Positions 13,915-33,146 of a DNA stretch of 64,000 nucleotides are shown in pieces (position 1 is the stretch's first letter; the number at the start of each line of letters is the position of its first letter). The DNA is from Cenarchaeum sp. (GTDB taxonomy: Archaea; Thermoproteota; Nitrososphaeria; Nitrososphaerales; Nitrosopumilaceae). Below the pieces are notes generated by a model. It saw nothing but the letters and a program-made list of their open reading frames with translations. It made no database searches and had not been told where the DNA came from. The stretch spans positions 1 to 64,000 of the forward strand of contig OY843768.1 in the NCBI GenBank assembly GCA_963693095.2, written 5' to 3'. The position numbers and the translations under genes were made by a program.

Positions 13915-14418
13915 ATGACTGCGCAAGTCGTCCGCCACAACCCCATGCTAGCTGACAACGAAAAGACGGTAGCGTATCTAAAGGGGATGGTAGGCGAGGA
14001 CAAGGACAAGATCAACGAGATCGAGGAATGGGGAGCCAGGCGCCTGGTGCGAATTACCGCCTTGCGCAAGTTCGTCGCCTTTCTCGCAAAAAACGGCATA
14101 CTCGAGGAGAAAGGCAAGCGGATGGAGGGGATCGTCGCCGAGTTTACCATAGAGCAGTGCTTTGCGATAGCCACAAAGTATGGCCTTGACGCTGTGGAGT
14201 ACAAGTTCTATGACAGCCAGTCCGGCGTGCTCACCGGCAACATGCATGTTGACCTCCAGGCCGTCCTGTCGGTGCCAATAGAGCCTCCAACGGATATCTT
14301 CAAGAGCGACAAGGAGGCGACGATGTTCCTGGATGCCATCAGGGGCAAGGATGTCCTTGAGCTTGGCAAGATGGCAAAGTCCATAGTGCTCACGGAAAAA
14401 GAGCGCATATACGCCTAG
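13915..14418 (+). CDS. Family A paralog A1 (YwgA/SocA-like)
   Basis: Shared signature MLADNEKTV..L...EIEEWG...QC.AIA.K.GL...Y.F.DS.SG.L...FL..IRGKD..ELG. Start chosen from the TATA position. Confidence 0.85.
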   Translation: MTAQVVRHNPMLADNEKTVAYLKGMVGEDKDKINEIEEWGARRLVRITALRKFVAFLAKNGILEEKGKRMEGIVAEFTIEQCFAIATKYGLDAVEYKFYDSQSGVLTGNMHVDLQAVLSVPIEPPTDIFKSDKEATMFLDAIRGKDVLELGKMAKSIVLTEKERIYA

Positions 14419-14518
14419 TGCGGACACATAGTTTCTAGAACGCACTAGTTCACATTTGCACCATGATGCCAGCAGCACACCACAAGTTTTTTTAGGCCGT
14501 GGTTGTGGGGGGTGAGCC

Positions 14519-15133
14519 TTGGACATGGCACGTCTTCCACGCGCGTCAGGGGATGGCACGATTAGCGCAACTGCGATCATGATCGCAGTGACTCTCGCGA
14601 CACTCGCCGTCACGGTTCCGGCCAGGCTAGTGCATGACATGGGAACGCTAGGTGATCTCTTTTCCATACTTGCGCTGCCAATAATGCTGGCAGTGTTTTA
14701 TACGGCCCAGCGGCTGCACTTGAAGGCACGAGAGTCTAGGATATCCTTATTGAAAGAGAAGGACAAGAGTAGCAGGAAACACATGGAGGACACCGTTTCC
14801 CCCTGCCTGTCAACCGTGATGGTCATCATAAAGTCCAAAGAGCCGAGCCTCGCCGTTGGCAATACCCTCATGATGCGCCAGATCGTTGATGACATTGGGC
14901 TGGCTAGGGCTCAACACGGACACGTGCTTGACAGGACAGGGCAGTTCCTAGCAGAGCGTGCTAGAACGTCGGCGCTGAAGGTATTTGAGGATGGCAGTGT
15001 ATGCTCACACACCGCACTGCCCGATCTGCACGATGATCTTTTAGAACTCAAAGGCAGTATGTGGGGAGTTGATGACAAGGAGTTGGTGAACCGAAGGGAG
15101 CATGAAGCAGGATTCGAGAGTCCTGCCATCTAG
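14519..15133 (+). CDS. Family B paralog B1 (two-TM membrane protein)
   Basis: Two N-terminal hydrophobic helices; C-terminal motifs DIGL.RAQHG and DD..LV.RR shared with other B copies. Confidence 0.8.
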   Translation: MDMARLPRASGDGTISATAIMIAVTLATLAVTVPARLVHDMGTLGDLFSILALPIMLAVFYTAQRLHLKARESRISLLKEKDKSSRKHMEDTVSPCLSTVMVIIKSKEPSLAVGNTLMMRQIVDDIGLARAQHGHVLDRTGQFLAERARTSALKVFEDGSVCSHTALPDLHDDLLELKGSMWGVDDKELVNRREHEAGFESPAI

Positions 15134-15284
15134 TGTATGCGGGAACACTGGTTCTAGCCGGCATGTCCGGCAAGCGCAGGCCAAAACCCGTCTGCAAGAG
15201 ACGGCAGTGTGGGAAGTGAGTGTCGGCTACGCCCCATGACTGCACTACATCGCTAGGCATGAATCGGGTCATAAAACCAGTAGT

Positions 15285-15615
15285 TGGTCATGTGCCCAAA
15301 ACCGCCCAAAACGGCCCCGGAACCGCCTGAAACGCAAGCAGATCAATCGGGGGGCGGCCCGGACGGCCCGCTTGATTCGAAAAAAGGGGCGCCGGGGGCG
15401 CGACGGGCTCGCCAACCCGAGGATACATGGCGCCATCTATGGGGCGTTCTGCGCACTGTGCTGCGTGCCCGTGTCCGCGCGGCACAACGCGCCGTGCGGC
15501 GCCGTGGAGGGGGCCGACCCTGGTGGAGTTCATGGCCTGGATCGGGGGTGGCGGCTCGCGCGTGCGCCCACGGAGGCAGCCCCAATGGCTGACCGTGAGG
15601 GTCGGCACATGATCA
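15285..15615. mobile_element. Possible MITE or IS remnant inserted in the A2 promoter
   Basis: Imperfect inverted ends (TGGTCATGTGCCCA / TCGGCACATGATCA). Separates the GCTAGGCATGA box at 15252 from the A2 TATA region. Confidence 0.35.
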
Positions 15616-15669
15616 TGTGCTGCGCACAGGTCAATAATTACAAGGTGGGATTTTTTACAGGGGTGTGAC

Positions 15670-16176
15670 ATGGCGGCACAAGTTCTTCGAGCTGACCCAA
15701 TGCTAGCCGACAATGAAAAGACGGTGGCGTTTCTCATAGAAAGGGCAGGAGACGACAGGGTAAAGATCGCCGAGATCGAGGAGTGGGGCAAGAGGCGACA
15801 GGCTCGCATTGAGACGCTCTGCGGCTTCGTTGGGCTTCTCGCAAACAACGGTGTCTTTGGGCCGTGCCGACAAGAGGATGAACAGGGTATAGAGGACTTT
15901 GCCACAACGCAGTGCCTCGAGATTGCCACAAAGAATGGCCTCAAAAAAATAGATTACGCGTTCGCCGACACCCAGTCCGGCCCCCTCTGTGCCGACCTGG
16001 ATCTTGACCTCAGGGCCGTTGAGGCAGTGGATGTAGAGTCCCCCACGGGTCTCTTTGAGAGTGCCGAGCTAGAGGCAAAGTTCCTAGATATAATCAGGGG
16101 CAAGGACATCTATGAGCTCGGCAGAATGGCCAGGCTACTCGTCATCGACGAGCGGTTTCGCATGATACCGCTGTGA
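15670..16176 (+). CDS. Family A paralog A2
   Basis: Family A signature. Confidence 0.88.
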   Translation: MAAQVLRADPMLADNEKTVAFLIERAGDDRVKIAEIEEWGKRRQARIETLCGFVGLLANNGVFGPCRQEDEQGIEDFATTQCLEIATKNGLKKIDYAFADTQSGPLCADLDLDLRAVEAVDVESPTGLFESAELEAKFLDIIRGKDIYELGRMARLLVIDERFRMIPL

Positions 16177-16285
16177 CGCTTGATAGATCGCAGCAAAGCT
16201 AGATGATCGCAACACAGGCCCGCCATTACGGGGCATTTTGGGATCGCGAGTAACTTTTTTTAGGAGAGGCAACGTCGTGGCCTTT

Positions 16286-16583
16286 ATGGTCTCAAGACTT
16301 GGATCGCAAAATCCTGGGAATGGCACAATGGGCATGGCAGTCGCTGTAATCGCAGTTTTGGCAGTGCCAATCGCAGTTGCGATGGCTACAGGATATGTGA
16401 ACAATCCGGTTGCTCTAAGCCATGTCTTTGGCATATTGTCGTTTCCGTTTGCGCTGTTTATCTTTTTTCTTGCCCAGGCGTATTTCCACAAGAACAGTGC
16501 GCACACGAGAGTCCGTCCTGCGAATGTAAGATCGTAAGAACAGGGCACAGGTGAAATCTACATTCAACATGAGCCTGGCGCTC
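16286..16583 (+). pseudogene. Family B paralog B2, frameshifted and 3'-truncated
   Basis: Close to B3. Indel near 16521 gives an early TAA; the gene is broken at a GCGCTC junction. Confidence 0.75.
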
Positions 16584-16790
16584 CTCGGTCACTGGCATCG
16601 AGGGCGCCTCGCCGCACCTATGCTCGATCTTTTTTCCTAGTGGGCCTCGTCGCCTTTATCGTGGCCCTGCAGCTGGTGATACTGTCTAGGTGGAGGTAGG
16701 GGAAGGGGTGTTTTGCCAAGGGCGCATCTCACCAAGGGGCGGCGATATTCAGCAAGATCTGCGGGAGGCTCACTCAGGGTTCTGGGGCGG
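16578..16790 (+). repeat. Degenerate duplicate of the 3' end of 12628..13584 plus downstream DNA
   Basis: Matches about 13461-13675. Confidence 0.85.
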
Positions 16791-16805
16791 CCAGTTTCGG
16801 GTTCT

Positions 16806-16941: not shown

Positions 16942-17457
16942 ATGGCGGCACAAGTTCTTCGAGCAAACCCAATGCTAGCCGACAATGAAAAGACGGTGGC
17001 GTATCTGATGGAGATGGCCGGAGATGACAAGGAAAAGATCGCCGAGGTCGAGGAGTGGGGCAAGAGGCGCCAGGGGCACATTGAGACGCTCCGCCGCTTT
17101 GTGGGACTCCTCGAGCAGAACGGCATCTTTGAGCAGCCTAAAGGAAGGCTAAACAGGGTCATGGAGGACTTTGCCACAGCGCAGTGCCTTGCGATTGCCA
17201 CGAAAAATGGCCTCAAAGAAATAGACTACATGTTCACTGACAGCCGGTTCGGCCCACTCTGTGCCGACCTGGACCTTGACCTCAGGGCAGTCGAGGCAGC
17301 CAGCGTAGAGTCCCCAACTGGCCTCTTTGAGAGCGCCGAGCTCGAGGCAAAATTCCTAGAGACAGTCAGGGGCAAGGACATCTATGAGCTGGGCAGAATG
17401 GCCAGGCTGCTCGTCATCGACGAAAGGTATCGCCTGATACCACTAGGCGACGAATAG
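16942..17457 (+). CDS. Family A paralog A3
   Basis: Family A signature; TTATAAA upstream. Confidence 0.88.
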   Translation: MAAQVLRANPMLADNEKTVAYLMEMAGDDKEKIAEVEEWGKRRQGHIETLRRFVGLLEQNGIFEQPKGRLNRVMEDFATAQCLAIATKNGLKEIDYMFTDSRFGPLCADLDLDLRAVEAASVESPTGLFESAELEAKFLETVRGKDIYELGRMARLLVIDERYRLIPLGDE

Positions 17458-17555
17458 ATCGCAGCCAAGCTCAATGATCGCAGAATGGGCCGCCATTGCG
17501 CGGTACTTTGGGCTCACGAGTAACTTTTTTTAGGAGAGGCAACGTCGTGGCCTTC

Positions 17556-18170
17556 ATGGCCTCAAGATATGGATCGCAAGACCAACGGAATGGCACCATG
17601 GACATGCCGACTGTTGTGCTCGCAGCCTCTGCCGCGTCAGTGGCGTTTGCGATAGTTACAGGATACGTGACCGATCCAGTTTCCCTGAGCCATGTCTTTG
17701 GCATGCTGTCGTTTCCGCTTGCCCTGCTTCTCTTTTTTCTTGCCCGGCGCATTTCCACGAAAACTGTGCGCGTCAGGGAGTCCGTCCTGCGAGAGGAGGA
17801 TCGCAAAAACAGGGCACAGGTGATATCCACAGTCAACGTGTGCCTGGCGCTCGTGCAGTGAACCTTGATCCAAAACAAGAAGCATTATGCCTCCGGCATG
17901 CCCGTCATGCGCCACATAGCCGAGACCATTGGCCTTGTGGGGGCACAGCATGATCACCTGCTAAGCAAGACAGGCGCACACCTCGCAGATAGCATCACGA
18001 ATACGGCATTGGGGACTATCAGAAAGGACAGTTTATGCACTATGCCGACGCTCTCCAGCATGCTCGACGGCCTTTACTCACTAGGGGGTGAGATACTGGC
18101 ACTCGACGATCCCTCACTCGTGGCGCGCAGAAGGTTCATGGCACGAACCTGGGGCCCGGAACTCGAATAG
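17556..18170 (+). pseudogene. Family B paralog B3 with one in-frame TGA (17859-17861)
   Basis: ORFs 17496..17861 and 17865..18170 are in the same frame and together give a full B protein. Confidence 0.8.
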
Positions 18171-18595: not shown

Positions 18596-18813
18596 AGGGG
18601 GCTATCCTTTGGCAAAAAGGGCGCATGGCCACACACCCCCCATTCGAGTCTGACATGCGCACAGGACGGCTTCTGGGGGACAGATCCTCGCCCTGTAGAG
18701 CCGCCCGGGACGCCAAAACCCGCACGTTTGGGGGCATTATGCACATGCCTTAGGCGCTATATTAGCCCCCTAAGTGCACACACTTAAAGAAGGGTTTGGT
18801 GTAGGGTTGCGTG

Positions 18814-19320
18814 ATGGACAGGTACCCCCCCAGGCCCATCCCCATGCTCGCTGACAATGACAAGACCGTAGAGTTCCTCATAAAGATGGCCGGAAAAGAC
18901 CCAGAAAAGCTCAAAGAGATCAAGGATTGGGGCGAAAAACGCCAGGTTCGAATCGAAAGGCTCTGCGGCTTTGCCGGATTCCTGCAGAAACACGACATCC
19001 TCGATATTGACAGCAAGGAGATGAGCAGGATCGCATTCGAGTGTGCCTTTCATCACTGTGTCGCCATCGCTAGCAAGCACGGCTTTGACATGGAATACAC
19101 GTTCAACGACAGCGAGTCCGGCCCACTGGCCGCGGCCCTAACCACTGACATTCATGCGGTAAGGCCCAACAGGTCAATAGAGGGGCTCTTTGCGAATGTG
19201 GGACAAGAGGCGGGCTTTTTGGAGGCCGTTGCAGGCAAGAATCCTGACGAGCTTGCCGAGCTGGCCAGGGAGCTAGTTATAGAAGAGGCGCATCGCATGA
19301 TCATCCTGCCACAGAGATAG
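18814..19320 (+). CDS. Family A paralog A4
   Basis: Family A signature, IILPQR-ending subtype. Confidence 0.88.
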   Translation: MDRYPPRPIPMLADNDKTVEFLIKMAGKDPEKLKEIKDWGEKRQVRIERLCGFAGFLQKHDILDIDSKEMSRIAFECAFHHCVAIASKHGFDMEYTFNDSESGPLAAALTTDIHAVRPNRSIEGLFANVGQEAGFLEAVAGKNPDELAELARELVIEEAHRMIILPQR

Positions 19321-19425: not shown

Positions 19426-20028
19426 GTGGCCTTGAAACGTCGACCACCGCTTTGGGACAGGCCGTCAGACCAGGCTGTGATCATAATCACGGCCATCATC
19501 ACTCTTCTCGTAGCTGCGGTACTGCGTGGATATGTGTATGACACGTTCACACTTAGCCACGCTTTTGGCATCTTCTCAATGCCCCTCGCCGTGTTTATCT
19601 TTCTAATTGCGCAATACCTCCACTCGCGCATGCGAAACCTCAGGGCATATATGCTTCGAGACGCAGACGAGAGGAATATGGCGCATATGGCATCCATTGT
19701 CAACCTGTGCAGGGCGCAATTGCTAGGCGCGCTGCGCTCTAGTGGCGGCTCTCCTGGACCCTTCAACACTGTCACAATGCGCAGTCTTGCCGCAGACATT
19801 GGGATGGTCAGAGCACAGTACGGCTATCTTCTTAGCAAAGATGGCCAACAGTTTGCTGACCTGGCGCGAGACTCTGCACTGGCCACACTCCAGACGGGCA
19901 GCTCGTGCCACCCTGCGGCATTCTCTGACGTGATCGACTTTTTGCACCGCCTTAGACGCGAGATGCTGGATCTAGACGACCCCAAACTCGTGGCACGCCG
20001 AAGGGACGCGTCTGGAACGGCAGACTAG
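19426..20028 (+). CDS. Family B paralog B4
   Basis: Two TM helices; DIGMVRAQYG and LDDPKLVARR. Confidence 0.82.
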   Translation: MALKRRPPLWDRPSDQAVIIITAIITLLVAAVLRGYVYDTFTLSHAFGIFSMPLAVFIFLIAQYLHSRMRNLRAYMLRDADERNMAHMASIVNLCRAQLLGALRSSGGSPGPFNTVTMRSLAADIGMVRAQYGYLLSKDGQQFADLARDSALATLQTGSSCHPAAFSDVIDFLHRLRREMLDLDDPKLVARRRDASGTAD

Positions 20029-21253: not shown

Positions 21254-21370
21254 AAAGATTCACAAAATCCGCATTATTGGGGCATGGGGGCATTGCGGCA
21301 ACTCGCTAGGCGTGGATTGGGTCTGAAAATAGGTCAAACTATAAAACAGGATTTGGTATAGGGGGGTGTG

Positions 21371-21877
21371 ATGAAAAAGCAACCCACCCGGCCCATCCCA
21401 ATGCTCGCTGACAATGAAAAGAGCATGGAGTTCCTCATAAAAAAGGTAGGCGACGACAAGGAAGAGATCGCCAAGATAAAAGAGTGGGGCAAAAAGCGAC
21501 AGGCTCGCATTGAAAAGCTCTGCGGCTTTGCCGGATTTCTCGAAAAGAACGGCATCCTCTACGTCAATGACGAGTCCATGAGCAGGATAGCCTTCGAGTT
21601 TGCCTTTCAGCACTGCATCGCCATAGCTAGCAAGCACGGATTTGACATGGGATACAGGTTCAGAGACAGCGAGTCCGGCCCGCTGGCCGCGGCCCTGACC
21701 ACTGACATTCATGCGGTAAAGCCTGACAGGTCGATAGATGGCCTCTTTGGCAGCATAGGGGACGAGGCGGACTTTTTGGAGGCCGTTGCAGGCAAGAGCC
21801 GTGGCGAGCTCGGCGTGCTAGCCAGGGAGCTAGTCATAGAGGAGGCACACCGCATGATCCTCCTGCCGCAGAGATAG
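21371..21877 (+). CDS. Family A paralog A6
   Basis: Family A signature. Confidence 0.88.
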   Translation: MKKQPTRPIPMLADNEKSMEFLIKKVGDDKEEIAKIKEWGKKRQARIEKLCGFAGFLEKNGILYVNDESMSRIAFEFAFQHCIAIASKHGFDMGYRFRDSESGPLAAALTTDIHAVKPDRSIDGLFGSIGDEADFLEAVAGKSRGELGVLARELVIEEAHRMILLPQR

Positions 21878-22283
21878 ATCGCAATCCAGATCGCAACACA
21901 ATGGCAGGCATTGTAGAGTATAGCGTCGTGTTGTCAAACCGCTGCCTTGTACGAAAAGTAGACCGGGCATGGGTGCCTGCAGGGCACAGATCCGGGAGAC
22001 TCGTTCAGGGTTCAGAGGTGGTCAGTTTCGGGTCTGGGGGGCACCACGGCGAGTCGCGCGCGTCTCACCAGGGATCCGCCCCCAATAAGGGCCAAAACGG
22101 GCCTGCATTGGCCATTCCGGGCGCTCCATATGCCCAACCCTTGGGGTGTGCCTATGGCGTCTATTTGGGGTTTTGCGGAATGTCAGTGTCAGGGAATGTG
22201 GACGAAATTACGGCGCCGGCTAGGCGTGAGCAGGGTCCAGATTATGTCAAAGTATAAAACAGGATTTTGCATAGAGCTGCGTG

Positions 22284-22790
22284 ATGACTGCGCAAGTACC
22301 CCGTCCTGACCCAATGCTCGCTGACAACGCCAAGACGATAGAGTTCCTCTTGGAAAAGGCAGGAGACGACCGGGAAGAGATCGCCAAGATCGAGGAGTGG
22401 GGCGCAAAGCGTGCAAAGAGGGTCGAAAGGCTCTGCGGTTTTGCCGGATTCCTCGAAAAAAATGGCATCCTCTATGGCACGGACTGGGACATGAGCAGGA
22501 TAGCCTTCGAGTTTGCCTTTCAGCACTGCGTCGCAATAGCCTCCCTGCATGGCTTTGACATGGAATACGAGTTCAACGACAGCCAGTCCGGCCCCCTGGC
22601 ATCAGACCTGACCCTTGACATTCATGCGGTAAGGCCCGCACAGTCAATAGGGGGGATCTTTGACAGCGTGGCCAACGAGGCGGACTTTTTGGCGGCCGTT
22701 GCAGGCAAGAATCCTGACGAGCTCGCCGAGTTGGCAAGGCGGCTAGTCATACCCGAGGCGCATCGCATGATCATCCTGCCCCAGAGATAG
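22284..22790 (+). CDS. Family A paralog A7
   Basis: Family A signature. Confidence 0.88.
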   Translation: MTAQVPRPDPMLADNAKTIEFLLEKAGDDREEIAKIEEWGAKRAKRVERLCGFAGFLEKNGILYGTDWDMSRIAFEFAFQHCVAIASLHGFDMEYEFNDSQSGPLASDLTLDIHAVRPAQSIGGIFDSVANEADFLAAVAGKNPDELAELARRLVIPEAHRMIILPQR

Positions 22791-23642: not shown

Positions 23643-24742
23643 TACTGACGAGCAAAAGTTCGTGCCATGATCAAACTTTCCCGACCCGCATGCTATATGG
23701 ATCGCCCCTCCCCACGCCCCGCATGGAAGGCCAAGAGCTGGAAGCGTTCCGCAGGGCACTCCGCGACGAGAGGGACGGCGACGTCAGGTACAGGTTTGCC
23801 GCGGTCAACATGCACGAGAACCGGGGGATGACGCGCGAGGAGATCGCACTTGCGCTCGTGCAGTGCCCCAGGTGGGTCGGCAAGTGGGTCGCGCGCTACC
23901 GGAGTGGCGGTGTCGAGGCCCTGCGGGACCGCCCCCGCCCCGGCAGGCCGCCGCTGGTCGCGCGGCAGAAGCTTGGCCGCCTGATTGGCCGAATGCCCGG
24001 GCGCGTCACGCCCGCAGAGGTCATGCTGGAGATCGAGCGGGCCGCCGGCGTGAGGTTCCACATGTCGCACGTCAGGAAAATAATGCGCAGGGCCGGCCTC
24101 TCCGCCAAGCGGACGCGCCTGGTGCACGTGAACAGGGCCGACGGGCCGACTGTCGCCGGCTGGCGGCGCCGGGTGCGGCGCGAGATAAGGCGCCTCAGGC
24201 GCGCGGGATTCACCATCGTAGTGCAGGACGAGACCATCGCCGTGCACGGCGCAGCCGACGGATCAAAGTACTGGTCGCGCGTGGGCGTCCCCGTCGTCGC
24301 CCCGTACACCGGGGGACACAGGAGGGTCGTGGTGTACGGCGCGATCTCCACTGACGGGAAGCAGATCTTCCGGGTGCACGACAGGTTCGATGCGGAGACG
24401 TTTGTCGCGTTCCTGCGCGACATGCACAGGAAGTTCGGCAGGGTCGCCGTGATCGTCGACAGGGCGCCGCAGCACAGGGCCGCGGCGGTGAAGGACTATC
24501 TTCGCGCCCACAGGGCGGTGAGGCTGATCGAGCTGCCCACCGGCTCGCCGTACCTCAACGCGATCGAGGAGGTGTGGCGGCAGGCAAAGCGGGCGCTGCT
24601 GGTCTCCGAGCACTACCCCACCATGGGGGAGATGCGGACGGCGGTGTCACGGCACTTCAGGCACACGAGGTACCGGCTCGACGTGATGGCATACCTGGGC
24701 CGGACGTCGCTGGAATGCGGCACGGACTTTTGATCGGCAGTA
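23643..24742 (+). mobile_element. IS630-family insertion sequence
   Basis: TIRs TACTGACGAGCAAAAGTTCGTGCC / GGCACGGACTTTTGATCGGCAGTA; TA duplicated at 23641-42 and 24743-44. Confidence 0.93.
23690..24733 (+). CDS. IS630-family transposase
   Basis: HTH region with RPGRP; DDE motifs VQDET, IVDRAPQH and SPYLNAIEEVW. Confidence 0.93.
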   Translation: MLYGSPLPTPRMEGQELEAFRRALRDERDGDVRYRFAAVNMHENRGMTREEIALALVQCPRWVGKWVARYRSGGVEALRDRPRPGRPPLVARQKLGRLIGRMPGRVTPAEVMLEIERAAGVRFHMSHVRKIMRRAGLSAKRTRLVHVNRADGPTVAGWRRRVRREIRRLRRAGFTIVVQDETIAVHGAADGSKYWSRVGVPVVAPYTGGHRRVVVYGAISTDGKQIFRVHDRFDAETFVAFLRDMHRKFGRVAVIVDRAPQHRAAAVKDYLRAHRAVRLIELPTGSPYLNAIEEVWRQAKRALLVSEHYPTMGEMRTAVSRHFRHTRYRLDVMAYLGRTSLECGTDF

Positions 24743-24907: not shown

Positions 24908-25513
24908 ATGGCTCCTCGACGCAAGGGACGTGATCTTTTGGACAGGCCGTTCGCCCTCACGGTGATCACAATCCTGTGCATCGGCACTGCGCTCGGAGCA
25001 GCGGCGCTACTCGGATATGTGCATGACTCGACAACACTTAGCCACGCATTTGGACTAATCTCAATGCCACTCGCCGTGTTTATCTTTCTAATTGCGCAAT
25101 ACCTCAACTCGCGCATGCGAGACCTCAGGGCATACATGCTTTGAGACGCAGACGAGAGGAACATGGCGCATATGTCGTCCATTGTCAACCTGTGCAGGGC
25201 GCAATTGCTAGGCGCGCTGCACCCTGGTGAGGGCTCTCCCGGATCACTCAACACCGGCACGATGCGCAGTCTTGCCGCAGACATTGGGATGGTCAGGGCG
25301 CAGTACGGCTATCTTCTTAGCAGAGGTGGCAAACAGTTTGCAACCATGGCGCGAGACTCTGCGCTGGCCACACTCCGGACGGGCAGCTCGTGCGACTCTG
25401 TGGCACTATCTGACATGATCGACTTTCTGTCCGGTCTTGAGGGTGAGATGCTGGATCTGGACGGCCCCGAACTCGTGGCGCGCCGAAAGGACGCGTCTGG
25501 AACCGCAGACTAG
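24908..25513 (+). pseudogene. Family B paralog B5 with an in-frame TGA (25142-25144)
   Basis: Close paralog of B4, which has CGA at this codon. Confidence 0.85.
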
Positions 25514-25661: not shown

Positions 25662-26177
25662 ATGACTGCGCAAGTTCTTCGACCTGACCCAATGCTCGCC
25701 GACAATGAAAAGACCGTAGAGTTCCTCATAGAGAGGGCAGGAGATGACAGGAAAAAGATCGCCGAGATCGAGGAGTGGGGCAAGAGGCGACAGGCTCGCA
25801 TTGAAATGCTATGCCGCCTTGTTGGGCTTCTCGCAAAGAACGGTGTCTTTGGGCGTGCCGACAAGAGGATGAACAAGGTAATAGAGGACTTTGCCACAAC
25901 GCAATGCTTTGCGATTGGCACAAGGTATGGACTCGACGGCATGGGGTACATATTCAGCGACAGCCAGTCCGGCCCCCTCTCGGCAGACTTGAGCCTTGAC
26001 CTCCAGGCCGTCAAGGACGTCCAGACCGAGTCCCCTACGGGGCTCTTTGCGAGTCCGGGAGACGAGGCGAGGTTCCTAGAGGCAGTCAGGGGCAAGGACA
26101 TCTATGAACTCGGCCGCATGGCCAGACTCATCGTCATCGACGAGAGATGTCGCATAACGCCACTGAATCCTGCATAG
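25662..26177 (+). CDS. Family A paralog A9
   Basis: Family A signature. Confidence 0.88.
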   Translation: MTAQVLRPDPMLADNEKTVEFLIERAGDDRKKIAEIEEWGKRRQARIEMLCRLVGLLAKNGVFGRADKRMNKVIEDFATTQCFAIGTRYGLDGMGYIFSDSQSGPLSADLSLDLQAVKDVQTESPTGLFASPGDEARFLEAVRGKDIYELGRMARLIVIDERCRITPLNPA

Positions 26178-26587: not shown

Positions 26588-27085
26588 ATGAGCGCGACAA
26601 CTGTCCCCCACAACCCCATGCTAGCTGACAACGAAAAGACGGTGGAGTTTGCAAAGGGGTTTGCCGGCGGGGACGAAAAACAGATCGCCGAGATAGAAGA
26701 GTGGGGCAAGAGGCGCCAGAGGCGCATCGACAGGCTCTGCCTCTTTGTCGGCTTCCTCGAGCAGAACAAGTTACTAAGGAAGGACGGCAAAGAGTTGGAG
26801 GGGATTATGCGCGAATTTGCCGCCACGCAGTGCTTTGCGATCGCCACAGTCCATAATCTAGACGGCATGGAGTACAAGTTCAACGACAGCCAGTCCGGCC
26901 CCATCTGTGCTGCCCTGCATCTTGACTTTGAGGCCGTCAAGGCGAAAAAGCCGCCCACAAGCCCCTTTGCGAATCCCGAGGACGAAAGGAGGTTCCTAGA
27001 GACAGTCAGGGGCAAGAACCCCCATGAGCTCGGCAGAATGGCTCGATCCCTAGTGATCAAAAAAAGATACCGCAAATACGACTAG
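26588..27085 (+). CDS. Family A paralog A10
   Basis: Family A signature. Confidence 0.88.
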   Translation: MSATTVPHNPMLADNEKTVEFAKGFAGGDEKQIAEIEEWGKRRQRRIDRLCLFVGFLEQNKLLRKDGKELEGIMREFAATQCFAIATVHNLDGMEYKFNDSQSGPICAALHLDFEAVKAKKPPTSPFANPEDERRFLETVRGKNPHELGRMARSLVIKKRYRKYD

Positions 27086-27188: not shown

Positions 27189-27803
27189 ATGGACACGACG
27201 CGTCATCCACGCGAGGCCAGGGATGGCACAATTGGCGCAACTGCGATCATGATCGCCATCGTTCTCGCAACACTCGCCGTTGCGGCTCCTGCGAGGCTTG
27301 TGCGTGACATGGGAACGTTGGGCGATCTATTTTCCATACTTGCGCTGCCAATAATGCTGGCGGTGTTTTACATCGCCCAAAGGCTGTACTCTGGGGCACG
27401 GCGAGACAGGAAGCTCGTCCTGCTAGAAGGGGACCAGAGGGGCAGGAAACACGTAATGGACACCATTGACCTGTGCAGGGCACTCACACGCGCCGTCATG
27501 CAATCCGGCAAGTCAGACCGTGCCATTGCCAACATGTCCATGCTGCGCCATATCGCCGCCGACTTTGGAATGGTCATGGAACGACACGGACGCATATTCA
27601 GCGATGATGGCAAGATTTATGCCGAGCATATTAGAGAATCTGCACTAGACGCGCTTACGGAGGGCAACGCGTGCTCATATGTCACTCTGTCTCAGATTGA
27701 TGACAAGCTTGAAGTCCTCAAGGATATGATCCTGGACATTGACGACCCAGGGCTGGAGGATCGACGGTCTAGGGCGGCAAGCATCACGGATCCTGTCATC
27801 TAG
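27189..27803 (+). CDS. Family B paralog B6
   Basis: TM region nearly identical to B1; the cytoplasmic part has diverged. Confidence 0.82.
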   Translation: MDTTRHPREARDGTIGATAIMIAIVLATLAVAAPARLVRDMGTLGDLFSILALPIMLAVFYIAQRLYSGARRDRKLVLLEGDQRGRKHVMDTIDLCRALTRAVMQSGKSDRAIANMSMLRHIAADFGMVMERHGRIFSDDGKIYAEHIRESALDALTEGNACSYVTLSQIDDKLEVLKDMILDIDDPGLEDRRSRAASITDPVI

Positions 27804-27997: not shown

Positions 27998-28663
27998 ATG
28001 ATGTCCGCGAAAGTTCTTCGCCCAAACCCGATGCTCGCCGACAATGCCAAGACGATAGAGTTCCTCATAGAAAGGGCAGGAGGCGACAGGGAAAAGATCG
28101 CCGAGATAAAAGAGTGGGGCGCAAAGCGTGAAAAGAGGATCGAAAGGCTGTGCCGCTTTGCCGGCCTCCTCGAGAAAAATGGCATTCTTTATGGCACGGA
28201 CAGGGACATGAGCAGGATAGAATTCGAGTTTGCGTTTCAGCACTGTGTCGCAATAGCTAGCAAGCACGGCCTTGACCTGGGATACACGTTCAACGACAGC
28301 GAGTCCGGCCCCCTGGCATCCGACCTGACCATTGACCTTTATGCAGCAAGGCCTAACCGGTCAGCAGAGACGCTCTTTGAAAACCCACAGGACGAGGCAG
28401 ACTTTTTGCAAGCCGTTGCAGGACGGAGTCCCGACGTGCTCGCCGAAGTGGCCAGGCTGCTAGTCATCCCCGAGACCCATCGCATGATCATCCTGCCACA
28501 GAGCAGATCAAAGATCACGAATCCGGCTAGAAATCTGTGGCGTTATTGCGGACCCGGAAAATGCGGCAAAGTTTCTAGCTCCAGTCAGTGGCAAGGCGTC
28601 TTTGCGCTTGGCAGGATGGCCAAGGCCATAGTGTTCACAAACGAACGGCGCACATACGCCTAG
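27998..28663 (+). CDS. Family A paralog A11; stop lost, reads into the remnant of another A copy
   Basis: Sister copies end CAGAGATAG, whereas this one has CAGAGCAG. The tail VFALGRMAKAIVFTNERRTYA resembles the A13 C-terminus. Confidence 0.8.
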   Translation: MMSAKVLRPNPMLADNAKTIEFLIERAGGDREKIAEIKEWGAKREKRIERLCRFAGLLEKNGILYGTDRDMSRIEFEFAFQHCVAIASKHGLDLGYTFNDSESGPLASDLTIDLYAARPNRSAETLFENPQDEADFLQAVAGRSPDVLAEVARLLVIPETHRMIILPQSRSKITNPARNLWRYCGPGKCGKVSSSSQWQGVFALGRMAKAIVFTNERRTYA

Positions 28664-28812: not shown

Positions 28813-29328
28813 ATGAGCGCGCAAGTTGCGTACCCTGATCCCATGCTAGCCGACAATGAAAAGACGGTAGCGTTCCTAAAGGAGTTTGTCGGCGAGGACG
28901 AAGCAAAGATCAAAGAGATCGAGGAGTGGGGCGCAAAACGCCAGGAGCGCATCGACAGGCTCTGCGGCTTTGCCAGCCTCCTTGAGCGCAACGACATACT
29001 AAAGGAGGGCAGCAAAAAGGACGGCAAAAAGCTGACGGGGATCATGCGAGAGGCTGTCATAGAGCAGTGCCTCGCGATAGCCACAAAGAGCGGGCTAGTC
29101 GAGATGGAATATAGGTTCAACGATAGCCAGTCCGGTCCACTCTGCGCAAGGCTGAACCTTGACGTTCAGGCCGTCAAGACGGTGCCCGTCAAGTCCCCCA
29201 CAGGCCTCTTTGAGAGTCCGGAGGATGAGGCAAGGTTCCTAAAGGCAGTCAGGGGCAAAGATGTCTATGAGCTCGGCAGGATTGCTCGCCCCCTGGTCAT
29301 CGAGCAAAGATACCGCATATACGGCTAG
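28813..29328 (+). CDS. Family A paralog A12
   Basis: Family A signature. Confidence 0.88.
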   Translation: MSAQVAYPDPMLADNEKTVAFLKEFVGEDEAKIKEIEEWGAKRQERIDRLCGFASLLERNDILKEGSKKDGKKLTGIMREAVIEQCLAIATKSGLVEMEYRFNDSQSGPLCARLNLDVQAVKTVPVKSPTGLFESPEDEARFLKAVRGKDVYELGRIARPLVIEQRYRIYG

Positions 29329-29394: not shown

Positions 29395-29622
29395 ATGGCG
29401 CAATATGGGCACGTATTCGGAGATGAAGGGGGGCTTTTTGCCGAACGCGTTAGGGAATTGGTGCTAGGTGCACTTGAGGAGGGCCGTCACTGCTCGAATG
29501 CCATCCTCTCTAACATTGATAGTAAACTTTTGGCCCTCAAGAGCGTGCTCCTGAATATTGACGACCTGTCTCTGGTGAACCGAAGGACGAGCGACGCCGG
29601 ATTCGGGAATCCTGTCCTCTAG
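29395..29622 (+). pseudogene. Family B paralog B7, C-terminal fragment
   Basis: AQYGHVF...IDDLSLVNRR; the TM part is absent. Confidence 0.75.
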
Positions 29623-29822: not shown

Positions 29823-30320
29823 ATGGTCAAGCTGCCTCCTCCAATCCCCATGCTCGCTGACCACAAAAAGACGATGGCGTATCTGATGGAGATGGCCGGA
29901 GAGAACGCAGAAGAGATCGCCGAGGTGGAGGAGTGGGGCAGGCAACACCAGAGGCGAACAAAGGCGCTGCGCCGCTTCGTCGCCTTCCTAGAGCAGAACG
30001 ACATACTGGTGGATGACGGCAAGATGAGGGGCATTATTGCCGAGTTTGCAGTAGAGCAGTGCTTTGCGATCGCCACAAAGTACGGCCTCGATGATATGGG
30101 ATACAAATTCCATAACAACCGGTCCGGCGCACTCACCGGTGACATGCCTGTTGCCCTCCAGGCAATCGGGCCGCTGCCAACAGAGCGCCAGACTGGCCTC
30201 TTTGCGAGCCCTGAGGATGAGGCAGAGTTTCTAGACACAGTTAGGTACAAGGACGTCTTTGAGCTTGGCAGGATGGCCAACGCCATAGTGCTCACAAACA
30301 AACGGCGCATATACGCCTAG
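29823..30320 (+). CDS. Family A paralog A13
   Basis: Family A signature. Confidence 0.88.
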   Translation: MVKLPPPIPMLADHKKTMAYLMEMAGENAEEIAEVEEWGRQHQRRTKALRRFVAFLEQNDILVDDGKMRGIIAEFAVEQCFAIATKYGLDDMGYKFHNNRSGALTGDMPVALQAIGPLPTERQTGLFASPEDEAEFLDTVRYKDVFELGRMANAIVLTNKRRIYA

Positions 30321-30469: not shown

Positions 30470-30973
30470 ATGAGCGCGCAAGATACCTATCCTGATCCCC
30501 TACTGTCTGACAACAAGGTGACAGTGGCGTACCTAAAGGAGATGGCCGGAGATGACAGGGACGCGATCGCCGAGATCGAGGAGTGGGGCGCAACGCGCCA
30601 GAAGCGCATTGCGATCCTGCGCAAGTTCATCGCCTTTCTCGAAAAAAACGGCATACTCGAGGAGAACGGCCAGCGGATGGAGGAGATCATCGCCGAGTTC
30701 ACCATAGAGCAGTGCTTTGCGATAGCCACAAAGTATGGCCTGGATGACATGGGGTACGAGTTCAGAGACAGCCTGTCTGGCACACTCACCGGCAATATGC
30801 ATATTGACTTTCGGGCCGTCATGCATATGCCTGTAGAGCCCCCGACGGATATCTTTGAGAGCCCCGAGCAGGCCGCAGGGTTCCTCGATGCCATCAGGGG
30901 CAAGGACGTCTTTGAGCTTGGCAAGATGGCAAAGTCCATAGTGCTCACCGACGACCAGCGCGTATTCCCCTAA
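30470..30973 (+). CDS. Family A paralog A14
   Basis: Family A signature; closest to A1 by eye. Confidence 0.88.
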   Translation: MSAQDTYPDPLLSDNKVTVAYLKEMAGDDRDAIAEIEEWGATRQKRIAILRKFIAFLEKNGILEENGQRMEEIIAEFTIEQCFAIATKYGLDDMGYEFRDSLSGTLTGNMHIDFRAVMHMPVEPPTDIFESPEQAAGFLDAIRGKDVFELGKMAKSIVLTDDQRVFP

Positions 30974-31037
30974 GTGCGGGCGCATCTGCCGTTTCTGAGA
31001 CGCGCTGGATCGCATCGGCGCCACGTTGGGGGCAGCC

Positions 31038-31144
31038 TATGAGGTCAGCACCTAGACTGCGCGCATGACCTTCTCGGTCACGCCCTCCCCGTGGCTCCCA
31101 CGTCAGTAAGCACGTAAGGAGGATCGACATGCGCCTGGCAGCCC
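31038..31144 (-). mobile_element. IS66 end remnant
   Basis: TATGAGGTCAGCACCTAGAC... matches the terminus and transposase 3' end of the element at 45805. Confidence 0.8.
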
Positions 31145-31453
31145 CTCGGGATACTCTGTAAAGGCCTGCTGCAGGCTCGCTCAGGGTTTAGAGGCGGCCA
31201 GTTTCAGGTCTGGGGGCACCCCCGCGAGTCGCGCGCACTCGCCGGGGATCCGCCCCCAATAAAGGCCAAAACGGGCCTGCATTGGCCATTCCGGGCTCTA
31301 TATGTCGCCCCTGGGGGTCGCCTATGGGGTCTATTTGGAGCCCTGCGGAATGCCAGTTTCAGGGAATATGGGGGAGATTATGGCGTCTGCTAGGCGTGAG
31401 CAGGGCCCAGATTATGTCAATGTTTAAAGCAGGATTTTGCATAGAGCTGCGTG

Positions 31454-31951
31454 ATGAGCGCACAAGCTGCCTACCCTGACCCCATGCTAGCCGACAATGA
31501 AAAGACGGTGGCGTTCCTAAAGGAGATGATAGGCGAAGACAAGGACAAGATCAAAGAGATCGAAGACTGGGGCGAAAAGCGCCAGATGCGCATCGACAGG
31601 CTCTGCCACTTTGTCGGCCTCCTCGAGCAGAACAACATACTAAAGGAGGACGGCAAAGAGTTAACAGGAATTGTGCGAGAACTTGCCATCACGCAGTGCT
31701 TTGCGATCGCCACAGCCCATAATATGGACAACATGGGGTATAGGTTCCACGATAGCAAATCCGGCCCACTCTGTGCCGTCCTGCATCTTGACCTTGCAGC
31801 CGTCAAGGCAAAAAAGTCGCCCACAAGCCCCTTTGCGAATCCCGATGACGAAAAGAGGTTCATAAAGGCAATCAGGGGCCTGTCAACCCGAATGCTTGCC
31901 CAAAAGGCTCGACCCTTGGTGATCAAGGAAAGAAACCGCATATACGGCTAG
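31454..31951 (+). CDS. Family A paralog A15
   Basis: Family A signature; closest to A10 by eye. Confidence 0.88.
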   Translation: MSAQAAYPDPMLADNEKTVAFLKEMIGEDKDKIKEIEDWGEKRQMRIDRLCHFVGLLEQNNILKEDGKELTGIVRELAITQCFAIATAHNMDNMGYRFHDSKSGPLCAVLHLDLAAVKAKKSPTSPFANPDDEKRFIKAIRGLSTRMLAQKARPLVIKERNRIYG

Positions 31952-32067
31952 TGCGGGCGTGCACGACAGCCTGCTCCTCCCTGCTTGGCACTGCGATATC
32001 GCTAGGCGTGAACCGAGCCACAAAGCACCTTAAATTTTAAATCAGGGACGGCAGGTTTGCCCACGCA

Positions 32068-32568
32068 GTGAACGAACTACCCACAAGCTCAATGCTCACC
32101 GACAATGCCAAGACGGTGGCCTATCTAATGAAAATAGCCGGCGAGAACAGGGAGCAGGTCGCCGAGGTCGAGGAGTGGGGCAAGAGGCGCCAGGGGCGCA
32201 TCGAAACGCTGCGCCGCTTTGTGAGCCTACTCGAAAAGAATAGTGTCTTTGAGCGGCCTGACGGTAGGCTGAACAGGGTCATGGAGGACTTTGCCATAAC
32301 GCAGTGCTTTGCGATAGCCACAAAGCATGGCCTCGATGACATGGAGTACGAGTTTTCTGACACCCAGTCCGGCCCGCTCTGCGCCGACCTGGACCTTGAC
32401 CTCAGGGCCGTTGAGGCGGCCCCCACAGAGCCCCACGCGGGCCTCTTTGAGAGTGCCGAGGGCGAGGCAAAATTCCTAGAGACGATCAGGGGCAAGGACA
32501 TCTATGAGCTCGGCAAAATGGCCAGGCTGCTCGTCATCCATGAAGAGTATCGCATGATACCACTGTGA
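32068..32568 (+). CDS. Family A paralog A16
   Basis: Family A signature; GTG start. Confidence 0.86.
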   Translation: MNELPTSSMLTDNAKTVAYLMKIAGENREQVAEVEEWGKRRQGRIETLRRFVSLLEKNSVFERPDGRLNRVMEDFAITQCFAIATKHGLDDMEYEFSDTQSGPLCADLDLDLRAVEAAPTEPHAGLFESAEGEAKFLETIRGKDIYELGKMARLLVIHEEYRMIPL

Positions 32569-32648
32569 TGCGGGGCAGGGGACGGCGACAGTGGGCCGCA
32601 GGTGTGCGCGCCAAGCTATATAGCGCAATGCGCAAAACCGCGTGCGCG

Positions 32649-33146
32649 TTGGCGAGGGTCACATATCCGGACAGGACACTTGCGGACAATGATGCCACAA
32701 TGGAGCTCCTCAGGAAGCACTCTGGGGGCACCGTCGACGAGCTGGAGGAGATTGCCCTGTGGGGCGCAGCACGCAAGGCGAGGATCGACACACTGTGCCG
32801 CCTTGCCGGCCTCGTCGACGGCGTGGGCGTCTTTGGGCGCGGCGAGGGGAGGATGAGCAGGATCGCGATGACCTTTACAATCCACCCCTGTGTCGCAATA
32901 GCTAGCAAGCACGGCCTTGACATGGGATACACGTTCAACGACAACGAGTACGGCCCGTTCTCACCAGACCTCAGCGTCGACCTTCACGCCGTAGAGCCCG
33001 TGCGCGTGGACACTCCCACTGGCATATTTCCTAGCGACGGGGCAGAGTCGGCGTTTCTTGAGGACATTGGGGAAAAGAGTGCCAAGGAGCTCGGCGAGTT
33101 TGCGCGCTTGCTCGTTATAGACGAGCGGCATCGCATATTGTTATAG
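32649..33146 (+). CDS. Family A paralog A17 (YGPF subtype)
   Basis: LADNDATMELL...GLDMGYTFNDNEYGPFSPDL; TTG start after CTATATA. Confidence 0.85.
   Translation: MARVTYPDRTLADNDATMELLRKHSGGTVDELEEIALWGAARKARIDTLCRLAGLVDGVGVFGRGEGRMSRIAMTFTIHPCVAIASKHGLDMGYTFNDNEYGPFSPDLSVDLHAVEPVRVDTPTGIFPSDGAESAFLEDIGEKSAKELGEFARLLVIDERHRILL

What the first reader, a model, noticed from the sequence alone, without database searches (positions are those of the whole stretch)
13915..33146. Array of 19 diversified YwgA/SocA(Panacea)-like genes interleaved with a membrane-protein family: a candidate undescribed system
Seen: 17 co-oriented family-A copies here, 2 more at 43.9-45.3 kb, and one tail remnant. They fall into several subtypes, share a fixed scaffold, and most are intact. 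The core F.F.(Q)(H/C).AIA.KHGLD.GY.F.D.(Y/S)GP(F/L)S.DL..DL...FL..V.GK matches my recollection of the YwgA/SocA/DUF4065 pattern (LQK.VY....G.DLGY.F..Y.YGPYS.L). It is preceded by a distinctive MLADNEKTV...EIEEWG extension. Known: Panacea/DUF4065 domains are promiscuous antitoxins, and SocA is a proteolytic adaptor. Inference: a 'library' of antitoxin, adaptor or sensor variants kept by gene-accordion expansion next to the S-layer locus. I know of no described archaeal array of this kind.
Basis: partly seen in the sequence, partly recalled or inferred. Interest (0 to 1): 0.88.

Follow-up and report, generated by a model that had tools for sequence, protein, structure and literature searches.

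The report
Archaeal array of antitoxin-like gene cassettes
A sponge-associated archaeon carries a 20-kb run of diverged copies of a small antitoxin-like gene, originally paired with a membrane-protein gene that has mostly decayed, which looks like a new, genus-restricted branch of a known toxin-antitoxin theme rather than a wholly new kind of system.

Summary
The window has 19 co-oriented family-A loci: 15 intact, one split by an IS and one 5'-truncated at 13.9-33.1 kb, plus 2 at 43.9-45.3 kb. They are interleaved with a two-TM family B (3 intact, 2 with one TGA stop, 3 fragments). The unit is an A->B cassette. A and B distances co-vary (Mantel r 0.78). A distant paralogous pair A'->B' occurs elsewhere in the genome. 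A complex model places A on B's cytosolic helical bundle (ipSAE 0.79, best control 0.13). A fails the Pfam SocA_Panacea model. Remote evidence links it to that superfamily, and more closely to the toxin-binding C-terminal domain of DarG: A' profile vs Panacea hhalign 88%, DarG profile hits down to 5e-7, and the best structural match is the DarG chain of 7yk3 (Z 7.0). The copies are old (median dS 1.27) and constrained (dN/dS 0.34). Each has its own TATA box, and subtypes are shared with a sister Cenarchaeum species. Best reading: a genus-restricted toxin-antitoxin-like cassette family whose toxin genes decay and leave orphan neutralisers. B toxicity, expression and any 'library' function are untested.

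The parts
13915..14418 (+). family A copy (intact), first of the array; followed by intact B
14519..15133 (+). family B copy, intact, 204 aa, two N-terminal hydrophobic segments plus a cytosolic helical domain
15670..16176 (+). family A copy (intact); modelled
16238..16537 (+). family B N-terminal fragment
16942..17457 (+). family A copy (intact)
17496..18170 (+). family B copy broken by one in-frame TGA
18811..19320 (+). family A copy (intact)
19426..20028 (+). family B copy, intact, 200 aa
20492..20800 (+). family A copy, 5'-truncated (profile positions 66-166); 93% identical in DNA to the 3' half of the 25662 copy
21368..21877 (+). family A copy (intact, no B behind it)
22281..22790 (+). 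family A copy (intact, no B); close ortholog in G036 (dS 0.051)
23202..23648 (+). family A copy interrupted after ~residue 150 by an IS; its last ~20 codons lie at about 24745-24810
23690..24733 (+). IS630-type transposase gene (DDE_3 plus HTH domains), flanked by TA; contigs of two runs join 23640 to 24743, so an allele without the insertion exists
24908..25513 (+). family B copy broken by one in-frame TGA (the intact paralog has R there)
25662..26177 (+). family A copy (intact, no B)
26588..27085 (+). family A copy (intact); chain 1 of the complex model
27189..27803 (+). family B copy, intact, 204 aa; chain 2 of the complex model and of the B fold model
28001..28663 (+). family A copy whose stop is lost; it reads through into the tail remnant of another copy
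28813..29328 (+). family A copy (intact)
29395..29622 (+). family B C-terminal fragment
29823..30320 (+). family A copy (intact, no B)
30470..30973 (+). family A copy (intact, no B)
31454..31951 (+). family A copy (intact, no B)
32068..32568 (+). family A copy (intact, no B)
32652..33146 (+). family A copy (intact; true start uncertain, the open frame begins at 32565)
43953..44450 (+). family A copy (intact), young duplicate of the next (dS 0.093)
44790..45287 (+). family A copy (intact)
45287..45670 (+). family B C-terminal fragment abutting the A stop
22940..23150 (+). example of a ~210-nt non-coding element, 79-88% identical, found 8 times in the genome and always just upstream of an A copy (also at 13664-13859, 22023-22232, 26323-26533, 31198-31402)
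13512..13591 (+). 3' end of the 318-aa gene left of the array; 88-91% copies recur inside the array at 16627-16706 and 18520-18599, a trace of segmental duplication

Best explanation
The array is a pile-up of a two-gene, toxin-antitoxin-like cassette restricted to the genus Cenarchaeum. Gene A encodes a soluble ~165-aa protein. Its core is a very distant relative of the Panacea/SocA antitoxin domain and of the toxin-binding C-terminal domain of DarG, and it carries a family-specific N-terminal helical hairpin. Gene B encodes a ~200-aa protein with an N-terminal two-helix membrane anchor and a cytosolic helical bundle. Proposed mechanism (inferred): A binds B's cytosolic bundle and keeps B harmless. 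If A is lost or outpaced, B damages the membrane and stops growth, whether for addiction or for abortive infection. Cassettes were duplicated as units at one variable island next to surface-protein genes. Over time most B genes were deleted or knocked out while A genes stayed intact, leaving mostly 'orphan' neutralisers. Shown: the families, their pairing and co-divergence, B decay with A retention, purifying selection on A, a promoter-like box per gene, and genus restriction. Predicted only: A-B binding. Inferred: B toxicity, neutralisation by A, and any benefit from orphan A copies.
For: Pairing: 8 of the 19 window A loci have B or a B remnant directly downstream. Intact A->B pairs also lie at 1.109 Mb and 1.384 Mb, and the syntenic array of sister genome G036 has 3.

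Co-divergence: across 10 pairs, A and B distances correlate (Mantel r 0.78; 0 of 5000 permutations reach it).

A deeper homologous pair exists. Four of 5 distant paralogs A' in the genome are followed by a ~175-189-aa ORF with N-terminal hydrophobic stretches (B'). Two overlap A' by 4 nt, and one is separated from A' by an IS. A vs A' gives hhalign 98.9%, and B vs B' gives 92%. G242 has both cassette types.

Binding model: ipSAE 0.79 (median of 3 runs) against a best control of 0.13. Runs share at least 87% of contacts, and partner pLDDT is at least 67. In the tool's calibration this mark was reached by 58 of 80 solved complexes and 2 of 110 mismatched pairs; my own alignments were used, so those counts hold only roughly. 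The interface is A 8-39, 73-77, 99-115 with B 107-172.

Antitoxin-like fold:
- The A' profile vs 16 archaeal PF13274 proteins gives hhalign 88.6%, score 45.1. The shuffled null has a maximum of 13.9 (n=60), and the reversed profile scores 14.0.
- Six of 9 A' proteins hit NCBIfam antitoxin_DarG within positions 175-291 of 338 (best 9.8e-6).
- PADLOC DarG is hit at 4.6e-7 by P0043 and at 0.026 by the window copy 44790.
- The A model (pLDDT 77.5) has as its best of 48,161 chains the 7yk3_D chain of the DarTG complex (Z 7.0, rmsd 4.2, 118 residues, model 46-168; the next hit has Z 5.3 over 40 residues).
- The Panacea profile's own best PDB hit is the DarG chain of the same entry (E 0.049).
- Passages of PMC8832971 say Panacea antitoxins pair with many unrelated toxins, including membrane-spanning ones. 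Passages of PMC11825919 say DarG2 has a second, DarT2-interacting domain that helps neutralise the toxin.

Which partner is costly: B is the one that decays (3 intact of 8 in the window), while 17 of 19 A loci keep open frames.

Constraint on A: median dN/dS is 0.34 at median dS 1.27 over 253 pairs of 23 copies.

Expression signals: a TATA-like box sits ~26-30 nt before the start of 16 of 18 aligned A copies, and a TTTTTTTA box sits before every B start examined (5 of 5).

Setting: IS elements, a C5 methylase, Fic and DUF5131 genes lie alongside.
Against: No A, A', B or B' protein passes any curated family threshold.

The close A profile against Panacea is not significant (hhalign 0.8%, E 0.069). 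The link rests on the intermediate A' group and on 45 aligned columns. The DarG hits are 14-28 bits against a 250-bit full-length cut-off. Foldseek found nothing in the PDB or BFVD. By the tool's own note, Z 7.0 is within the range of chance arrangements. The A' profile did not retrieve 7yk3.

B has only a generic helical-bundle match, and nothing shows it is toxic.

In the array A and B are ~100 nt apart, each with its own promoter-like box. That is unlike a classical bicistronic TA operon.

Predicted interface residues are not more variable than the rest in A (entropy 1.57 vs 1.45, p 0.6). In B they are only weakly so (p 0.008 overall, 0.06 within the cytosolic part).

In 7 loci from 5 genomes of other genera, A'-like genes had no detectable B/B' neighbour (0 of 7).

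For the closest ortholog pairs dN/dS is 0.43-0.74 on 14-20 substitutions, so recent neutrality of single orphan copies cannot be excluded.
Confidence: 0.55

Rival explanations
1. The orphan A copies are a maintained, diversified repertoire. It would be an 'anti-addiction' or immunity library that neutralises B-type toxins brought in by mobile elements, viruses or co-resident strains. Alternatively it would be a set of sensors or decoys for viral triggers, in the manner of strings of orphan immunity genes in bacteria.
For: - Fifteen intact copies fall into several old subtypes, and most lack a B.
- A is under purifying selection overall (dN/dS 0.34).
- Each copy keeps its own promoter-like box.
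- A ~210-nt upstream element is kept at 79-88% identity in front of copies whose proteins are only ~45-50% identical.
- Subtypes are conserved between two species.
- The island holds defence and mobile genes.
- An analogy is seen in a search listing and abstract only: strings of non-identical esaG and tsaI immunity genes in firmicutes (10.1101/2022.01.07.475358).
Against: No expression data could be obtained. No incoming B-type toxin on a virus or plasmid was found: B has only 6 relatives in 5.8 billion proteins, all from the same lineage. Interface positions of A are not enriched for variation. The closest orthologs have dN/dS up to 0.74.
Confidence: 0.2
2. The array is mostly a graveyard. 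A selfish or formerly useful cassette was duplicated by unequal recombination, B was purged because it is harmful, and the A copies are on their way to decay with no present function.
For: - B is decaying: 5 of 8 copies are broken or fragmentary.
- One A is truncated, one is split by an IS and one has lost its stop.
- There are tail remnants and repeated boundary segments.
- One same-genus genome (G223, 91% complete) has no copy at all.
- Recent ortholog dN/dS reaches 0.74.
Against: With median dS 1.27, 165-codon frames would not stay open by chance in 15 of 17 array copies. dN/dS is well below 1 in deep comparisons. Promoter-like boxes and the upstream element are conserved.
Confidence: 0.15
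3. A and B are not a toxin and a neutraliser. They would be a membrane-anchored receptor or scaffold (B) with a cytosolic adaptor or regulator (A), used in signalling or in the symbiosis with the sponge host, and multiplied for dosage or specificity.
For: - B's cytosolic part resembles four-helix bundles such as CheA P1 and chemoreceptor sensor domains (Z 10.6-11.7).
- A and B have separate promoter-like boxes.
- The family is confined to a host-associated genus.
- The array lies beside large surface-protein genes.
Against: The bundle matches are generic; designed proteins score as high. An adaptor without its membrane partner makes little sense, yet most A copies lack B. The only sequence and structure links of A point to antitoxin domains.
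Confidence: 0.1

Closest known systems
C-terminal, DarT-binding domain of the antitoxin DarG (DarTG2; PDB 7yk3; NCBIfam NF048014, PADLOC PDLC02990)
   Same: It is the best structural match of the A model (Z 7.0, 118 residues). The A' relatives hit the C-terminal part of both DarG profiles, with best values of 9.8e-6 and 4.6e-7. The window copy 44790 hits the same part weakly (0.19 and 0.026). According to passages of PMC11825919, this is the domain that binds and helps neutralise the toxin.
   Different: A has no macrodomain; it is 165 aa and has no Macro hit. No DarT gene was found, although that search's controls were silent. The partner is a membrane protein rather than an ADP-ribosyltransferase. 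A has an extra N-terminal helical hairpin. All scores are far below the family cut-offs.
Panacea / SocA domain antitoxins (Pfam PF13274, DUF4065; PanA-PanT systems)
   Same: Both are small soluble proteins encoded next to a putative toxin gene. The LQK..Y.A...Y.F...GP.S core motif is shared via the A' group (hhalign 88%). Panacea partners are known to include membrane-spanning toxins, and one phytoplasma genome is reported to hold 25 copies (passages of PMC8832971).
   Different: The PF13274 model does not detect any copy, and the direct A-vs-Panacea profile comparison is not significant. True PF13274 proteins exist in 3 of 26 sampled genomes of the same family (f1), but not in this genome. 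The tandem array with mostly orphan copies was not found described for archaea in my searches.
Strings of orphan immunity genes beside polymorphic toxin loci (for example esaG/tsaI in firmicutes)
   Same: Both are tandem, non-identical paralogs of a neutraliser gene that outnumber the toxin genes and are shaped by recombination between copies (abstract seen in the listing).
   Different: There is no secretion system or toxin-delivery gene here. B is an integral membrane protein of the same cell. There is no sequence relationship.

Membership tests
SocA_Panacea (Pfam PF13274 / DUF4065) | Match to the family HMM at or above its gathering score (25.7 bits) | tested here: not met
   There is no hit at E<=1 for 4 A copies, 4 distant paralogs or 10 A' relatives. 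The whole genome, six frames, has 0 matches at E<=1. As a positive control, 12 of 201 genomes of the phylum match, and one of those proteins hits NCBIfam SocA_antitoxin at 2.2e-20.
SocA_Panacea (Pfam PF13274 / DUF4065) | Profile-profile similarity of the core domain | tested here: inconclusive
   A' vs 16 archaeal Panacea proteins gives hhalign 88.6%, score 45.1 over 45 columns, against a shuffled maximum of 13.9 (n=60). Close A vs Panacea gives 0.8%, and merged A+A' gives 48.5%.
SocA_Panacea (Pfam PF13274 / DUF4065) | Encoded in a conserved two-gene locus with a toxin candidate | tested here: met
   A->B and A'->B' pairs occur in this genome and in two same-genus genomes. B toxicity itself is not tested.
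DarG antitoxin (NCBIfam NF048014, PADLOC PDLC02990) | N-terminal macrodomain (ADP-ribosyl glycohydrolase) | tested here: not met
   A is 165-170 aa and no macro domain was found by Pfam. DarG-profile alignments cover only profile positions ~154-291.
DarG antitoxin (NCBIfam NF048014, PADLOC PDLC02990) | C-terminal toxin-binding domain | tested here: inconclusive
   Six of 9 A' proteins hit at E 9.8e-6 to 0.025. In PADLOC, P0043 hits at 4.6e-7, window copy 44790 at 0.026 and copy 26588 not at all. VIA gives Z 7.0 to 7yk3_D. All are below curated cut-offs.
DarG antitoxin (NCBIfam NF048014, PADLOC PDLC02990) | Adjacent DarT toxin gene (PF14487) | tested here: inconclusive
   There is no match in the genome, but the same search rang in none of 14 control genomes. 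The gene next to A is B, which has no DarT hit.
Type II toxin-antitoxin module (generic) | Antitoxin protein binds the toxin protein directly | tested here: inconclusive
   This is a prediction only: ipSAE 0.79 against a best control of 0.13, at least 87% shared contacts, and partner pLDDT of at least 67.
Type II toxin-antitoxin module (generic) | Toxin arrests growth and the antitoxin rescues | not testable with these tools
   It needs expression assays.
YwgA-like proteins | Match to a YwgA family model | not tested
No model named YwgA gave a hit in Pfam or NCBIfam at E<=1.

The most novel reading that the evidence does not exclude
The orphan A genes form a selected, heritable repertoire of cross-reactive neutralisers in a host-restricted archaeon. 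This would be an archaeal 'immunity island' that protects the cell against B-type membrane toxins arriving on viruses, mobile elements or from sister strains. The conserved 210-nt leader would act as a common control or recombination module that lets cassettes be shuffled.
Probability: 0.2. Interest if true: 0.75.

Novelty: new variant of a known kind. Interest (0 to 1): 0.55.

Why it matters
Toxin-antitoxin and defence modules of ammonia-oxidising archaea are almost unexplored. This family is invisible to Pfam, NCBIfam, PADLOC and PHROGs.

If the reading holds, it adds three things. It adds a branch to the Panacea/DarG-C-terminal-domain group of toxin binders. It adds a new membrane-protein partner family. 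And it gives an unusually clear natural record of how such cassettes multiply at one site, lose the toxin and keep the neutraliser.

It also offers a compact test bed: about 10 natural A-B pairs plus many orphans, suitable for studying specificity and cross-neutralisation. The practical reach is limited because the family is confined to one uncultivated, sponge-associated genus.

Tried and rejected
- Foldseek of the A model against the PDB and BFVD gave nothing at E<=0.001.
- The A profile against PDB sequences gave only a chance hit. The A' profile against the PDB gave only a 27-residue ComR stretch. P0043 and P0061 alone against the PDB gave nothing significant; 7yk3_B scored E 0.47 for P0043.
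- PHROGs gave no hit for 9 proteins.
- The ESM Atlas was closed or did not hold the sequence.
- The large proteins hit by the A profile in the 1.84-billion-protein library, with 3 to 29 matched stretches each, are repeat proteins. The 5 scanned are cadherin-like/Big_9 repeat proteins that match a short D/G-rich stretch. I rejected them as relatives.
- The B model matched only generic helical bundles.
- No RNA holder was listed for the stretch, so expression is untested. The runs laid were contigs only, and many 'joints' reflect paralog cross-matches.
- Rfam and tRNA scans of the window found nothing.
- The 210-nt upstream element shows no covariation support for an RNA structure: covariation term +1.84, and 3 of 60 pairs with double changes.
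With a single protein it returned only the sister genome.
- A B/B' neighbour was sought beside A'-like genes of other genera and was not detected in 0 of 7 loci.
- I considered the idea that interface residues carry the diversity. It was not supported for A.
- I considered recoding because both broken B genes carry TGA. At least one is a plain R-to-stop change relative to the intact paralog, and two cases prove nothing.
- Supplementary datasets of PMC8832971 (lists of Panacea homologs and partner clusters) could not be seen. They might already contain relatives.

Full report
**1. What is there**

The window is the first 64 kb of a 1.98-Mb contig, in a genome of 2.0 Mb and 60.4% G+C. The same-genus reference genome G036 is a record titled 'MAG: Cenarchaeum sp.'. 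So this is a member of that sponge-associated genus of ammonia-oxidising archaea.

Between 13.9 and 33.1 kb every gene of note is on the + strand. G+C is 55-60% there, against 66-70% in the first 12 kb to the left.

A profile of the repeated ~165-aa protein (family A, alignment A1) finds 25 copies in the genome at E <= 6.6e-46:
- 17 loci lie in the stated span. Fifteen are full open frames. One is cut by an IS630-type transposase gene. One is 5'-truncated.
- 2 lie at 43.9-45.3 kb.
- 6 lie elsewhere, at 0.254, 1.109 and 1.384 Mb, plus three at 1.658-1.665 Mb.

The second family (B, ~200 aa) has two hydrophobic segments, at about 12-39 and 41-66, with basic residues on both sides. The rest is helical. 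In the window 3 copies are intact, 2 carry one in-frame TGA, and 3 are fragments.

**2. The unit is an A->B cassette**

Wherever B or a remnant exists, it follows an A copy. This holds for 8 of the 19 window loci. It also holds for the two dispersed pairs at 1.109 and 1.384 Mb and for three pairs in the syntenic array of G036.

Across 10 pairs, A-A and B-B distances correlate (Mantel r 0.78; 0 of 5000 permutations as high). So cassettes were copied as units, and B diverges faster.

The genome also holds five much more distant A relatives (A', E 3e-13 to 9e-6). Four of the five are followed by a 175-189-aa ORF with N-terminal hydrophobic stretches (B'). Two overlap A' by 4 nt, and one is separated from A' by an IS. 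Profile comparison gives A vs A' 98.9% and B vs B' 92%. Another Cenarchaeum genome (G242) has an island mixing A-B and A'-B' cassettes. The pairing is therefore older than family A itself.

Outside the genus I found A'-like genes, but no detectable B/B' beside them in 7 loci.

**3. What A resembles**

No curated model recognises A, A', B or B' (Pfam, NCBIfam, PADLOC, PHROGs). PF13274 (SocA_Panacea) finds nothing in the whole genome at E <= 1, although it finds 12 of 201 genomes of the phylum. So A is not a Panacea member by that family's own test.

Remote signals converge, however:
- (a) The A' profile aligns with 16 archaeal Panacea proteins over the core motif with hhalign probability 88.6% and score 45.1. 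Sixty column-shuffled controls reached at most 13.9, and the reversed profile reached 14.0. The close A profile alone is not significant.
- (b) Six of 9 A' proteins hit the C-terminal part of NCBIfam's DarG model (best 9.8e-6). PADLOC's DarG model is hit at 4.6e-7 by P0043 and at 0.026 by the window copy 44790 (also E 0.19).
- (c) The AlphaFold model of A (pLDDT 77.5) has, among 48,161 chains, the DarTG complex chain 7yk3_D as its best match (Z 7.0, rmsd 4.2, 118 residues covering model 46-168). All lower rows cover only the N-terminal hairpin.
- (d) The Panacea profile's own best PDB hit is the DarG chain of 7yk3 (E 0.049). That chain's sequence occurs in two chains of the entry. I infer, but did not verify, that D is the second.

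Each signal is weak on its own. Foldseek found nothing, and Z 7 is within the tool's stated noise range. Together they make it likely, in my estimate about 65%, that A's core belongs to the same broad group of toxin-binding antitoxin domains.

According to passages I read, DarG2's second domain interacts with DarT2 and contributes to neutralisation (PMC11825919). Panacea antitoxins pair with dozens of unrelated toxins, including membrane-spanning ones (PMC8832971).

**4. Does A bind B?**

One complex job was run with the cognate pair 26588/27189 and my own alignments. It gave ipSAE 0.79 (runs 0.80, 0.79, 0.72) against a best control of 0.13. At least 87% of contacts are shared between runs, and partner pLDDT is at least 67. 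In the tool's calibration this mark was reached by 58 of 80 solved complexes and 2 of 110 mismatched pairs; those counts hold only roughly here.

The contacts involve A's N-terminal hairpin (8-39) and the conserved core loop (99-115). On B they involve the cytosolic helices 107-172. This supports binding but does not show it.

Interface positions are not more variable than others in A (p 0.6). In B they are only marginally so.

**5. History and constraint**

Among 23 full copies, median dS is 1.27 and median dN/dS is 0.34 (253 pairs, 23 of them saturated). Only the 43953/44790 pair is young (dS 0.093).

In a tree with 9 copies from G036, the clearest cross-species pairs are 22281, 26588, the 1.109-Mb copy and the 1.659-Mb copy, which is identical in both genomes. 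Their dS is 0-0.064. Further subtype-level pairs have dS 0.33-0.54. So the subtypes predate the species split, and this genome added copies: 17 loci against 7 full copies plus a tail fragment in the syntenic array.

An 80-nt piece of the gene left of the array recurs twice inside it at 88-91% identity. That is a footprint of segmental duplication.

The family is confined to the genus. Three of 4 other genus members have it, and one (91% complete) has none. In the other 146 sampled genomes of the family, only 5 have weak A'-type hits. Only 7 clusters at E <= 1e-30 exist among 1.84 billion representatives.

**6. Expression signals**

Sixteen of 18 aligned A copies have a TTTAAA/TATAAA-type box ~26-30 nt before the start codon. 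That fits leaderless archaeal transcripts (inference). Each B start examined (5 of 5) has a TTTTTTTA box at a similar distance, within the ~100-nt A-B spacer. So in the array A and B probably have separate promoters, unlike the overlapping A'-B' pairs.

No RNA data set was available.

Contigs from 4 runs of 3 studies hold the array. Two of them join 23640 to 24743 across the IS, so an uninterrupted allele of that copy exists.

**7. Interpretation**

The partner that is lost is B, and the partner that is kept is A. If A were the harmful one, orphan A genes could not persist.

Several observations point the same way: the antitoxin-domain affinities of A, the predicted A-B contact, the membrane anchor of B, and the IS/methylase/Fic/DUF5131 surroundings. 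With these, the most economical reading is a toxin-antitoxin-like (or abortive-infection-like) cassette. A would neutralise a membrane-acting B by direct binding. The cassette multiplied at one hot spot and is now largely reduced to orphan neutralisers.

It remains open whether those orphans are selected, as anti-addiction or immunity or sensing genes, or are slowly dying. Deep dN/dS and the conserved promoters favour function. The near-neutral ratios in the closest orthologs (0.43-0.74, few substitutions) do not exclude recent relaxation.

**8. Novelty**

This is a new, very divergent and taxonomically narrow variant of a known kind. It has a new partner family, a new N-terminal extension and an unusual tandem layout.

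Many-copy genomes are already reported for Panacea: 25 homologs in one phytoplasma (passage of PMC8832971). My literature searches found no description of this family or of a comparable archaeal array. They cover only the held open-access library, and supplements were closed.

Noticed in passing
window 169-12623: There is a perfect-looking tandem duplication of a three-gene block: a HAD-type hydrolase of 311 aa, a 92-aa ORF and a 1692-aa protein with an N-terminal hydrophobic segment. The start sequences are identical at 169/6410, 1065/7306 and 1304/7545. G036 has three copies of the 1692-aa gene. The large protein has no Pfam hit, so 'S-layer' is an untested label.
   Followed up: partly
window 13664-13859, 22023-22232, 22940-23150, 26323-26533, 31198-31402; also C1 1657923, 1659173, 1665242: A ~210-nt non-coding element is kept at 79-88% identity. 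It is found only directly upstream of 8 A copies of different subtypes, and it is more conserved than the coding sequences behind it. RNAalifold gives no covariation support. It might be a regulatory leader or a recombination substrate.
   Followed up: partly
window 34143-35763: A 34% G+C islet in a ~60% G+C genome carries a C-5 cytosine DNA methylase and an adjacent 268-aa ORF without a Pfam hit. It looks like a recently acquired restriction-modification pair.
   Followed up: partly
window 37660-43403 and G036 C1 26.8-32.6 kb: A block of Fic/DOC protein, 239-aa, 665-aa and 220-aa ORFs without Pfam hits, and a DUF5131 gene on the minus strand. In G036 ORFs with near-identical starts lie right after its array for the Fic, 239-aa, 665-aa and DUF5131 genes; the 220-aa ORF was too short to appear in that listing. 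It may be another conflict system.
   Followed up: no
window 17862-17864 and 25142-25144: Both nearly intact but broken B genes are interrupted by a single in-frame TGA and by nothing else. At least one is an R-to-stop change relative to the intact paralog.
   Followed up: partly
L039 (G242 contig C72) 4928-15402, minus strand: A third ~200-aa family (starts such as MPGDIRVSLTLDG..., MGRDVYVSATLAG...) sits directly upstream of three A'-type genes in another Cenarchaeum genome. This suggests three-gene versions of the cassette.
   Followed up: no
window 50461-64000: An open frame of more than 4500 aa runs off the window end. It has Big_5 and CopC-like domains and is a giant surface protein.
   Followed up: partly
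G000 C1 510498-515187: The A'-B' pair at 0.513 Mb is flanked by a 549-aa and a 477-aa ORF that by eye look like ATPase-type proteins. They were not scanned. This may be a defence-type neighbourhood.
   Followed up: no
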